A stretch of DNA of 64,000 nucleotides from Mizuhopecten yessoensis (GCF_002113885.1 NW_018404995.1:395248-459247); one strand, 5' to 3'; shown: positions 25,701 to 27,382, counted from the stretch's first letter. The notes: generated from the letters alone by a model not told the origin. Program-made: numbers and translations.

Positions 25701-27382
25701 AATGATGGATACCTTCTGTCTTCCTGGGAACTTGAACTTTGCTCTCCTGAGGGCCTCAATAACTGCAGCTCGGTTGTTTTCCCTTGCACGACAGGACATT
25801 ATGGACTGGCCGATGCGCACACGGGCGACAGTTCCTTGAGGTTTACCATAGGCGCCACGCATCCCTGTCTGAAGCCTGAAAATTGTATCCCAATAAATCA
25901 GCAATAAGATAGTTTTCTGCACTAAAGCTGTAAACTTGAGAACTTAGAATGCATTAATATCGATATATATCAGAAGGCTCCCCCTGCCTCCCTCTGTTTA
26001 CTTTGGATGGAGCCTTTTTGTCTCATTTTGGAAGGAAACTTTCAGGTGTCAACTGTAAATTTTGTGAATGAGGCATAAATGTGAAATGGTTTCAATTGGG
26101 AATGGACCCCATTATTGGGTTAAAAAAGTCCTTAATACAAAAAAATATATGTAAAAATTGATTTTGGGGTTACAACTTCCAACTTAAAATTGGCAGTCGT
26201 GTTAAAATCAATTTGATGTTATTAGGGTTGTGTAATTCCATATTGGAGAAAAAAAAGCGTCTATTTATGTCTTTTTAATAAAAATAATGAAAAAATCCTT
26301 CAATGGTAATTACCTATCAGCTCCAGCACATGACAACATCTTGTTGATTCTGCAAACATGGAAGGGATGCACTCGCATTCTTAAATGGAAAGAGTCCTTG
26401 CCGCAGTTCTTCACAAGGTATTTGTTTGCACAGATACGGCTGGCTTCCAGTGCCTCAGATGACAACTGTTCCAACTCGTCAGACACGAGATGCACGCATA
26501 GTGAGAACTCGTCTACCAAGGCCTTCTTCTTGCCAAGATCAAAGATACGGATCTTGGAATCTGAATATCATCATTGAAAAATAAATATTCACAAAAGTCA
26601 AAATCCGACATAATAAAACCATTTAAATACATTTACCTATATATGAAGTTGTACAAACACTGAAAATATGAACAGCATTTTAACAAAATCACTAGATACA
26701 GTGAGCCGATATAGCGACCCAAGTTTTAATATTGCAGTATTGGAACGGCCAAACTGAAAAACATGTCAGTCTGGAGCTGGTACTGCATGAAACTTGACAA
26801 TACATGTACTATCTTTTTCATGTCAAATCCAAATTCAACACTTTAATACATTTTTTTTTGTTTTGTTAATTTACATATAATTATTTCCCCCCACACATAC
26901 ATTTCAATCTTATTCAAATTTGACAGGTTGGGATCTTCATTGACTTCAAAATATCGTCTTCAGAAACTGACATAACATGAACTGTTTACAAAGATAAACC
27001 ATGAAAAGCGCTGAAAGTAATTTCACAATATTATCCAGATCTGCTGTTTTGCTTACCTGGAACACCACGACAAAACCTTGACTTGGGGTATGGCTTGTTT
27101 TTACAATATCTGTAACTGGAAAACACACAAATATGAAACAACGTTAACGTTGTGCATGTTCAGTAGTAAAACTAGAACGAAGCTTTTATTTCGGCAATAA
27201 ACTGAGAAAAAACAACTGAATTGATGACATGTAGATAATCTGCAAAAGCGATTATTTACTGTTGAACCGGAATTATGGAAAATCCGTATTTTATAGTTAA
27301 TCTGGCTCTAGAAAGTTCATAACCAATAGACTTCTGTAGCCAAAAAACGTGAAACTTACCAACGAGCTGGTCGGCGCCCCAT
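19794..27382 (-). CDS. RPL10: 60S ribosomal protein L10 / uL16 (218 aa)
   Basis: Coding exons 27382-27360, 27115-27057, 26560-26314, 25875-25713, 19958-19794 (657 nt). Translation [37 protein letters not shown]...[27 protein letters not shown]...[20 protein letters not shown]. Confidence 0.99.
20085..20211 (-). ncRNA. Box H/ACA snoRNA copy (variant A), SNORA10/snR37-like 5' pocket
   Basis: Hairpin GCAGUA...UACUGC, H box AUAUAA, hairpin CACC..GGCUG...UGGCC..GGUG, then ACA-UUG. Confidence 0.8.
20512..20637 (-). ncRNA. Box H/ACA snoRNA copy (variant B)
   Basis: Same 5' hairpin, H box AUAUAA, hairpin ACU..GGU...ACC..AGU, ACA-AAG. Confidence 0.8.
21062..21190 (-). ncRNA. Box H/ACA snoRNA copy (variant A)
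   Basis: As 20085-20211; ends GGUGACACAUUU. Confidence 0.8.
21440..21562 (-). ncRNA. Box H/ACA snoRNA copy (variant B', 3-nt shorter apical loop)
   Basis: As variant B; H and ACA boxes intact. Confidence 0.75.
22177..22302 (-). ncRNA. Box H/ACA snoRNA copy (variant B)
   Basis: Duplicate of 20512-20637 at +1665. Confidence 0.75.
22727..22855 (-). ncRNA. Box H/ACA snoRNA copy (variant A)
   Basis: Duplicate of 21062-21190 at +1665. Confidence 0.75.
23105..23227 (-). ncRNA. Box H/ACA snoRNA copy (variant B')
   Basis: Duplicate of 21440-21562 at +1665. Confidence 0.75.
23842..23967 (-). ncRNA. Box H/ACA snoRNA copy (variant B)
   Basis: Third copy of variant B at +3330. Confidence 0.75.
24100..24753 (-). 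mobile_element. Helentron/HINE-like insertion with about 150-bp internal repeats
   Basis: Absent from paralogous units (catttctaaaaatgg). SubTIR-like atatgcccgtc / gatgagcatat, ccgcgg palindrome, ggacagacg tract, aaaaatcaaata units at about 24240, 24392 and 24543. Confidence 0.8.
25037..25165 (-). ncRNA. Box H/ACA snoRNA copy (variant A)
   Basis: Variant A with H box and ACA; GUGGGGUUG in the upper stem. Confidence 0.78.
25545..25678 (-). ncRNA. Diverged H/ACA snoRNA copy (variant C); ACA box not evident
   Basis: Intact 5' hairpin with CCAGCU/CGUUCC pocket, H box AUAAUA; 3' half diverged. Starts about 35 nt after the splice donor. Confidence 0.55.
26660..26787 (-). ncRNA. H/ACA snoRNA copy in RPL10 intron 3 (variant D)
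   Basis: GCAGUA-CCAGCU-CCAGACUGA...UCAGUUUGG-C-CGUUCCAA-UACUGC, H box AUAUUA, then GGUCGCUAUAUC. Terminal box uncertain (possibly AUA). Confidence 0.65.

What the first reader, a model, noticed from the sequence alone, without database searches (positions are those of the whole stretch)
26733..26787. 5' pocket predicts pseudouridylation in the LSU peptidyl-transferase region (yeast Psi2944/snR37, human SNORA10 site)
Seen: all full-length copies keep the pocket strands 5'-CCAGCU and 5'-CGUUC(C/U), the latter starting 15 nt before the H box, which fits the 14-16 nt rule. Known (recalled; the rRNA is not in this window): eukaryotic LSU rRNA contains GGGAACG-U-G-AGCUGGG, giving 6+6 bp around an unpaired UG, and the C/U variation is tolerated as G-U. 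That U is modified by snR37 in yeast and SNORA10/ACA10 in human. Human SNORA10 is hosted in RPS2 and human RPL10 hosts SNORA70, so this implies a host-gene switch.
Basis: partly seen in the sequence, partly recalled or inferred. Interest (0 to 1): 0.7.

Follow-up and report, generated by a model that had tools for sequence, protein, structure and literature searches.

The report
Invertebrate SNORA63-like guide RNAs in RPL10
Introns of a ribosomal-protein gene hold eleven copies of a small guide RNA predicted to modify two conserved uridines near the ribosome's catalytic centre; it is likely the invertebrate counterpart of vertebrate SNORA63 rather than SNORA10, and its move between host genes is an ordinary, known behaviour of such RNAs.

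Summary
11 of 11 copies with an intact 5' hairpin carry CCAGCU and CGUUC(C/U) 15 nt before an H box. This genome's own 28S has GGGAACG-UG-AGCUGGG, which is the best site among 1,374 rRNA uridines (12 bp against 9; 0 of 3,000 shuffles). It maps to human Psi4491/4521, yeast Psi2944. The orthology claim needs correcting. The 3' hairpin pairs with the human Psi4390 site (8+4 bp in five copies). That pairing of targets is the one published for SNORA63/E3, whereas SNORA10 pairs 4491 with 18S-210 (PMC6984369). A model built only from metagenome relatives finds all 11 copies and nothing in the RPS2 region. Relatives sit in RPL10 (same last intron), RPL27A, SF3B3-like, tRNA-ligase and RRM-protein genes, while human SNORA63 sits in EIF4A2. 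Host switching is therefore real but is known snoRNA mobility. The copy the finding points at (intron 2) lacks a properly spaced ACA box. Expression and modification are untested. Verdict: new member of a known kind, interest 0.3.

The parts
26734..26786 (-). 5' hairpin of the intron-2 copy (the finding); pocket strands CCAGCU 26780-26775 and CGUUCC 26747-26742
   Evidence: 6+6 Watson-Crick pairs with own 28S
26727..26732 (-). H box (AUAUUA) of the intron-2 copy
26664..26726 (-). 3' part of the intron-2 copy: keeps GUCGCUAU and AUGCU, but has no ACA at canonical distance (AUA at 26669-26667; nearest ACA at 26652-26650); viability doubtful
25555..25677 (-). Copy with intact 5' pocket and decayed 3' hairpin, no ACA (lower end approximate)
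   Evidence: fold z 0.30; 27.7 bits with model R1
25302..25432 (-). Degenerate copy, 5' pocket lost (a further fragment starts at 25519)
25037..25164 (-). Type B copy (CGUUCU; 3' pocket weak, 6+3 bp using the second ACA)
24830..24950 (-). Degenerate copy (ACA reads AAA; 5' pocket still pairs 6+6 with 4 G-U)
23842..23966 (-). Type A copy: two hairpins, H box 23911-23906, ACA 23847-23845; 5' pocket to the Psi4491 site, 3' pocket to the Psi4390 site (8+4 bp, 14 nt to ACA)
   Evidence: 58.4 bits; z -4.20
23105..23226 (-). Type A' copy (3-nt shorter loop), both pockets and ACA
22727..22854 (-). Type B copy
   Evidence: z -3.58
22510..22630 (-). Degenerate copy
22177..22301 (-). Type A copy
21440..21561 (-). 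Type A' copy
21062..21189 (-). Type B copy
20845..20965 (-). Degenerate copy
20512..20636 (-). Type A copy
20085..20210 (-). Type B copy with a single ACA, 12 nt from the 3' pocket strand
20329..23990 (.). About 2.2 tandem units of 1,665 bp inside the last intron, each holding A, A', B and one degenerate copy
   Evidence: start-to-start spacings 928+737 and 1665; 100% identical families
27360..27382 (-). RPL10 (uL16) coding exon 1
   Evidence: junction 27115/27360 in RNA-run contigs
27057..27115 (-). RPL10 exon 2
26314..26560 (-). RPL10 exon 3
   Evidence: PF00252 E 1.3e-11; junctions
25713..25875 (-). RPL10 exon 4
   Evidence: PF00252 E 7e-11; junctions
19794..19958 (-). RPL10 last coding exon; the 5.75-kb intron 25712-19959 holds 10 intact-pocket and 5 degenerate copies
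   Evidence: loose ends at 25713 read into this exon in 3 of 4 runs

Best explanation
The finding is the 5' hairpin of one of eleven intact-pocket copies of a box H/ACA snoRNA gene in introns 2 and 4 of RPL10, predicted to guide pseudouridylation of 28S rRNA at the human U4491 (4521; yeast U2944) site with its 5' pocket and at the human U4390 site with its 3' pocket, which likely makes it the invertebrate counterpart of vertebrate SNORA63/E3. Shown: gene structure and splicing, hairpins and boxes, complementarity to this genome's own 28S, covariation, and relatives in other animals' introns. Inferred from standard H/ACA biology: the RNA is co-transcribed with RPL10, released from the intron, bound by dyskerin/Cbf5, Nop10, Nhp2 and Gar1, and positions the U at the base of each upper stem. 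The five type A/A' copies are the likeliest working genes, type B copies likely work mainly through the 5' pocket, and the intron-2 copy may be unstable. The ten copies in the last intron arose by local tandem duplication. They would need cutting apart, or only some mature; this is untested.
For: 5' pocket: 12 Watson-Crick pairs at one 28S site against 9 for the next-best of 1,374 U sites; 0 of 3,000 shuffled pockets reach 12; best site for 11 of 11 copies. Site identity: with a fixed offset, 18 modified human positions between 4362 and 4506 in Table 1 of PMC6182160 fall on the expected base of this genome's 28S (compared by eye on the stretch printed). This places the targets at Psi4491 (91% modified in human) and Psi4390 (99%). 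3' pocket: type A pairs 8+4 bp, 14 nt from ACA, score 29 against 19 for the next site. Relatives: model R1, built from 13 non-window copies, hits 73 places in 36 of 66 metagenome loci and all 11 window copies. Its structure shows two-sided changes in 17 of 26 pairs, with 84% of cells paired against 31-41% when slid. The 3' strand A(C/U)G at 13-14 nt from ACA was not part of the metagenome query, yet is present at 23 of those 73 hits, in 18 loci (one search matched to by hand). SNORA63: PMC6984369 assigns it 28S-4491 and 28S-4390. The Rfam SNORA63 consensus printed has UCGUUCCC in the 5' hairpin and CUAU...ACGC, 14 nt from ACA, in the 3' hairpin: same order as here, with a similar GCAG/CUGC basal stem (by eye).
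Against: No window copy reaches any Rfam gathering score. RF00092 (SNORA63) gives no hit in the array or in the genome (49 of 43,018 candidates scored). It scores only 26.5 bits against a cut-off of 90 on a relative (E 0.012 in 201 nt; E 2.9 in 49 kb). The best Rfam match is nematode ceN36-1, whose 3' consensus lacks the 4390 pocket by eye. Under a looser pairing score (G-U allowed, several registers) 4 of 400 shuffles matched the 5' pocket's score. The 3' pocket has no shuffle control of its own, and its score of 29 is only about 1.5 sd above that loose null (mean 24.6, sd 3.1). In type B the 4390 site is not the top-scoring one (19 against 21). 50 of 73 relative hits miss the strict 3' pattern, and the RPL10-hosted copies in L046/L094/L105 lack its right strand. 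YGCTAT and the 5' pocket were in the metagenome query, so their conservation in the seed matches is by construction. Many metagenome loci are redundant. Neither the mature RNA nor the modification was observed.
Confidence: 0.82

Rival explanations
1. One reading: it is the SNORA10 (ACA10) orthologue, relocated from RPS2 to RPL10.
For: Same 5' target; SNORA10 is assigned to U4521 in the snR37 preprint. The 19-kb RPS2 region has no copy of this RNA.
Against: SNORA10's second target is 18S-210, and it was not found in fish other than Latimeria or in chicken. Here the second pocket matches 28S-4390. RF00264 finds nothing in the genome and is not among the weak hits on the array or relatives.
Confidence: 0.05
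2. It is an invertebrate lineage (with nematode ceN36-1) that reached the 4491+4390 combination independently of vertebrate SNORA63, by shuffling of antisense elements; functional analogue, not homologue.
For: Sequence similarity to RF00092 is weak. ceN36-1 shares only the 5' pocket and snoR136 only the 3' pocket by eye. PMC6984369 reports that antisense elements switch between non-homologous guides.
Against: Same two targets in the same hairpin order with the same spacing as the SNORA63 consensus, kept across relatives in at least four different host genes.
Confidence: 0.1
3. The copies, including the one in the finding, are mostly non-functional relics of tandem duplication, or partly an assembly artefact, and the pocket match is only inherited.
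For: 5 of 16 starts are degenerate. The finding's copy lacks a canonical ACA. The 1,665-bp units are 100% identical. No mature RNA was seen.
Against: Five copies keep both pockets, both boxes and stable folds. No other locus in the genome scores with R1 among the 5 outside pattern matches, so this locus is the only candidate source of this guide found. Independent runs contain type A', type B and the intron-2 copy nearly unchanged. For the intron-2 copy alone this rival is about even odds.
Confidence: 0.03

Closest known systems
Vertebrate SNORA63 / E3 (Rfam RF00092), hosted in EIF4A2
   Same: Two-hairpin H/ACA RNA of about 125-130 nt; 5' pocket for 28S-4491 and 3' pocket for 28S-4390 (PMC6984369 passages; consensus); CGUUCC strand about 15 nt before the H box; ACG strand 14 nt before ACA.
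   Different: Host is RPL10, not EIF4A2; many copies in one intron. The left strand of the 5' pocket is a perfect CCAGCU here, while the vertebrate consensus has none at that place. Far below the family's cut-off.
Nematode ceN36-1 (Rfam RF01627)
   Same: 5' hairpin with CCAGCUCC...GGCGUUU; best Rfam hit on the finding's copy (24.8 bits, E 0.48) and on relatives (37.6 bits; 12 weak hits).
   Different: Below the cut-off of 48; the 3' consensus does not show the 4390 pocket (by eye). Its host gene and target could not be found in the held papers.
Yeast snR37
   Same: Guides Psi2944 in helix 90 through its 5' hairpin, shown by CMC primer extension in the deletion strain (10.64898/2026.03.20.713187 passages).
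   Different: snR37 carries extra helices that bind Upa1/Upa2/Rbp95 and scaffold pre-60S particles. This RNA is a minimal two-hairpin guide with a second pocket and no such extensions.
Human SNORA10 / ACA10 (Rfam RF00264, SNORA64/SNORA10)
   Same: Shares the 28S-4491 target.
   Different: Second target is 18S-210; patchy in vertebrates; no model hit here.
Intronic snoRNA clusters
   Same: Several snoRNAs in one intron, a recognised minority arrangement (PMC11028025 passages).
   Different: Here 10 intact-pocket copies of one family; animals mostly follow one snoRNA per intron (same paper).

Membership tests
Box H/ACA snoRNA | Hairpin-hinge-hairpin-tail fold | tested here: met
   Types A and B fold so, z -4.20 and -3.58; covariation in all four helices among relatives
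Box H/ACA snoRNA | H box ANANNA in the hinge, 14-16 nt after the start of the 3' pocket strand | tested here: met
   11 of 11 copies at 15 nt
Box H/ACA snoRNA | ACA box after the second hairpin at canonical distance | tested here: inconclusive
   Met in 8 of 11 copies; not in 26786 (the finding's copy), 25677 or 20210
Box H/ACA snoRNA | Bipartite pocket complementary to a target U | tested here: met
   6+6 bp on own 28S
Box H/ACA snoRNA | Mature RNA, dyskerin binding, actual modification | not testable with these tools
   Only assembled contigs were available
SNORA63/E3 | 5' pocket for 28S-4491 | tested here: met
SNORA63/E3 | 3' pocket for 28S-4390 | tested here: met
   Type A/A' 8+4 bp at 14 nt; weak in type B; 23 of 73 relative hits carry the strict motif
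SNORA63/E3 | Rfam RF00092 gathering score (90 bits) | tested here: not met
   No hit on window copies; 26.5 bits on relative L081. It works like SNORA63; formal membership of the Rfam family is not shown.
SNORA63/E3 | Intron of EIF4A2 | tested here: not met
   Host is RPL10; this genome's eIF4A gene was not examined directly
SNORA10/SNORA64 | Second pocket for 18S-210 | tested here: not met
   No such site among the top three 3'-pocket targets of the 8 copies that gave candidates
SNORA10/SNORA64 | RF00264 model match | tested here: not met
snR37 | Extra helices binding Upa1/Upa2/Rbp95 | tested here: not met
   The RNA is about 125 nt with two simple hairpins
ceN36-1 | RF01627 gathering score (48 bits) | tested here: not met
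   24.8 bits here; up to 37.6 in relatives

The most novel reading that the evidence does not exclude
The two-target guide for helix 90 (Psi4491) and helix 89 (Psi4390) is an old, pan-animal RNA that Rfam misses outside vertebrates. It has moved among at least seven host genes (RPL10, RPL27A, an SF3B3-like gene, a tRNA ligase, two RRM-protein genes, EIF4A2) while keeping both pockets. This would make SNORA63 the ancestral guide for Psi4491 and SNORA10's pocket a later add-on. In at least two animals it has amplified into a 10-plus-copy cluster in the same last intron of RPL10, which would require cutting between copies or yield long snoRNA-capped RNAs.
Probability: 0.6. Interest if true: 0.45.

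Novelty: new member of a known kind. Interest (0 to 1): 0.3.

Why it matters
It gives an unannotated invertebrate gene for a guide aimed at the A-site region of the peptidyl-transferase centre. It also gives independent comparative support for the assignment of SNORA63 to 28S-4491, which PMC6984369 made from prediction and from persistence of the modification where SNORA10 is lost. It shows how target-based naming misleads: one shared target pointed to the wrong human gene. The many-copies-per-intron layout is a usable test case for snoRNA release in animals, but host mobility and intronic clusters are both already described.

Tried and rejected
1) Rfam at gathering threshold on the whole window: 0 hits. 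2) SNORA10 family and SNORA63 family searches of the genome: 0 hits each, with few candidates scored. The SNORA70 model was not run genome-wide; it did not appear among hits with E up to 10 in 19500-28000. 3) An 18S-210-like target for the 3' hairpin: I first noticed GUCGC/CCUC complementarity near the matching 18S region and rejected it, because CCUC is the basal stem and lies 8 nt from ACA. 4) Other copies in the genome: a DNA search gave 11 matches, all at this locus. A pattern search gave 15 matches, 10 here and 5 elsewhere, against 3 for the reversed control. The five outside loci and the RPS2 region score at most 13.8 bits with R1, against 27.7-58.4 for true copies. RPS2 exon boundaries were not mapped, because the script machine was lost. 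5) Expression: no RNA holder was listed on record. Contigs from guessed-RNA runs confirm RPL10 splicing but cannot show a mature snoRNA. 6) snRNA targets (U1-U6) were not scanned, and the 28S was scanned as two separate pieces. 7) The SNORD34-like element found beside the relatives in L046/L105 is absent from this window (2 two-mismatch matches, 1.27 expected). 8) Automated host-gene calls on metagenome loci were not possible. Hosts were read for 11 of the 36 loci with hits. 9) Papers. Passages read: 10.64898/2026.03.20.713187 (plus abstract), PMC6984369, PMC4914119, PMC3511168, PMC3412847, PMC7072173, PMC1802619, PMC11028025, PMC1474057. PMC6182160: abstract and first part of section 15 with Table 1. 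PMC1464110 is not held. Nine library searches listed no paper on this RNA in invertebrates, judged from titles and abstract starts only; subscription papers and snoRNA databases are not covered. 10) Earlier notes of this scan: nothing near this place or by sequence.

Full report
Setting. The finding lies on the minus strand in intron 2 of an RPL10 (uL16) gene. Five exons translate into one open frame with GT-AG introns, exons 3 and 4 hit PF00252, and contigs from public runs join the exons at the predicted points. A seed scan finds 16 related hairpin starts: 1 in intron 2 and 15 in the 5.75-kb last intron. Part of the array is a 1,665-bp tandem unit.

Observation. Eleven copies carry CCAGCU and CGUUC(C/U), with the second strand 15 nt before an ANANNA box (0 expected in 100 shuffles). 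The five others are degenerate. The finding's hairpin folds at z -5.78. Eight of the 11 also have ACA at canonical distance from a second pocket. The finding's own copy does not: it has AUA 9 nt after the strand and ACA only 26 nt away.

Target of the 5' pocket. The complement of the pocket matches 6 places in the genome, 3 of them in LSU rRNA copies reading GGGAACG-UG-AGCUGGG. I scanned 18S, 5.8S and two 28S pieces from this genome, 1,374 U sites. This site is best for 11 of 11 copies (scores 35 or 33 against at most 27). At the fixed register it gives 12 pairs against 9 for the next site, and 0 of 3,000 shuffles reach 12 Watson-Crick pairs. A looser score with free registers is reached by 4 of 400 shuffles. 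Using Table 1 of PMC6182160 and one fixed offset, 18 modified human positions from 4362 to 4506 fall on the expected base of the printed stretch (compared by eye), so the U is human 4491. The snR37 preprint equates yeast U2944 with human U4521, shows that snR37 guides it, and names SNORA10 as the predicted human guide.

Target of the 3' pocket. In the five type A/A' copies GUCGCUAU and ACGU pair 8+4 around a U 101 nt upstream in 28S, 14 nt from ACA (score 29, next 19). That U is human 4390. Type B pairs 6+3 there and it is not its top site. This pocket has no null of its own, so its weight comes from conservation and from the literature. PMC6984369 states that SNORA63 guides both 28S-4491 and 28S-4390, that human SNORA10 targets 18S-210 and 28S-4491, and that the 4491 modification persists where SNORA10 is lost or retargeted. 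The Rfam SNORA63 consensus shows the matching strands in the same hairpin order.

Relatives. One pattern scan of metagenome contigs (5' pocket, H box, left strand of the 3' pocket) returned 68 stretches in 67 loci. Thirteen copies from them, none from the window, were aligned and modelled as R1. Seventeen of 26 pairs show two-sided changes, 0 of 500 shuffles reach that, and slid controls pair 31-41% against 84%; the structure was drawn from these sequences, which favours it. R1 hits 73 places in 36 of 66 loci searched, plus all 11 window copies at 27.7-58.4 bits, and nothing in 19 kb around RPS2. The right strand of the 3' pocket with its ACA spacing was not in the query, yet occurs at 23 of the 73 hits. 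It is missing in the RPL10-hosted relatives.

Hosts. I read hosts for 11 of the 36 loci. L046 and L094 are RPL10, with copies in the same last intron. L105 is from the same assembly, has no exon and holds five more near-identical copies, so it is likely the same intron; the three together give 11 R1 hits. L075, L081 and L082 are RPL27A (PF00828 for L075). L106 and L052 are SF3B3-like (PF23726 for L106; L052 named from recall of its C-terminal peptide, no Pfam hit). L086 is a tRNA ligase (PF08264; LeuRS by recall). L059 and L078 are two different RRM-protein genes (PF00076; hnRNP Q/R-like and ESRP/hnRNP-F-like by recall). Human SNORA63/E3 is in EIF4A2. So the host changes repeatedly, which fits the 'ongoing intragenomic mobility' of PMC3511168 and the imperfect synteny noted in PMC6984369. 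The organisms behind these contigs were not determined.

Mechanism. Shown: anatomy, complementarity, conservation. Inferred: co-transcription with RPL10, release from the intron, assembly with the four H/ACA core proteins, and isomerisation of the two uridines in helices 90 and 89. Animals mostly carry one snoRNA per intron, and two in one intron can give sno-lncRNAs. How ten copies in one intron mature is open. No run could show the mature RNA.

Against. No Rfam cut-off is met, so orthology to SNORA63 rests on targets, order and spacing rather than on a significant sequence score; convergence remains possible. The finding's copy may be a decaying one. Copy number may differ between individuals or be inflated in the assembly: one run joins a type B copy straight to the sequence that follows the last copy, which is a weak hint only.

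Verdict. The SNORA10/RPS2 reading is replaced by a SNORA63-type dual guide. It is a new member of a known kind, with known behaviours (host mobility, intronic clustering). Interest 0.3.

Noticed in passing
window 24830-24950 (-): The degenerate copy's 3' pocket (UUGCU / UGAAUG, 15 nt before AAA) pairs 5+6 around the U three bases further on, the human Psi4393 equivalent. It may be a shifted-target paralogue that has lost its ACA box.
   Followed up: partly
L046 39-108, 622-692; L105 232-301, 966-1035: SNORD34-like C/D snoRNAs (up to 38.1 bits, at the cut-off) are interleaved with the H/ACA copies in the other animal's RPL10 last intron; they are absent from this window.
   Followed up: partly
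window 20329-23990: The 1,665-bp units are 100% identical. Public-run contigs show joins that fit a shorter or differently ordered array in other individuals.
   Followed up: partly
window about 23290-23600 and 21630-21940: A roughly 300-bp high-copy repeat, probably a small mobile element, sits inside the array unit; it is very deep in all 4 runs laid.
   Followed up: no
L075 about 3030-3120; L081 about 4110-4205; L082 about 1530-1630 and 2270-2370: A second conserved intronic element ending in ACA recurs in the RPL27A hosts, likely another unannotated H/ACA RNA (by eye).
   Followed up: no
window about 17146-17325 (+): Exon of a neighbouring gene converging on RPL10; the peptide looks like a NudC-family protein (read by eye, name recalled).
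   Followed up: no
G000:C609 (L040) and G000:C69612 (L037): An intronless, frameshifted RPS2-like copy (likely a processed pseudogene), and a divergent intronless RPS2-like sequence on a 780-bp contig, possibly foreign.
   Followed up: no
G000:C76260 (L024, L025): 28S rRNA appears in repeated, broken pieces on this contig, several breaking at model position 1888/1889.
   Followed up: no
window 29743-29956, 33791-33982, 45659-46218: A CAT microsatellite, a 32-bp tandem repeat and a 560-base N gap.
   Followed up: no
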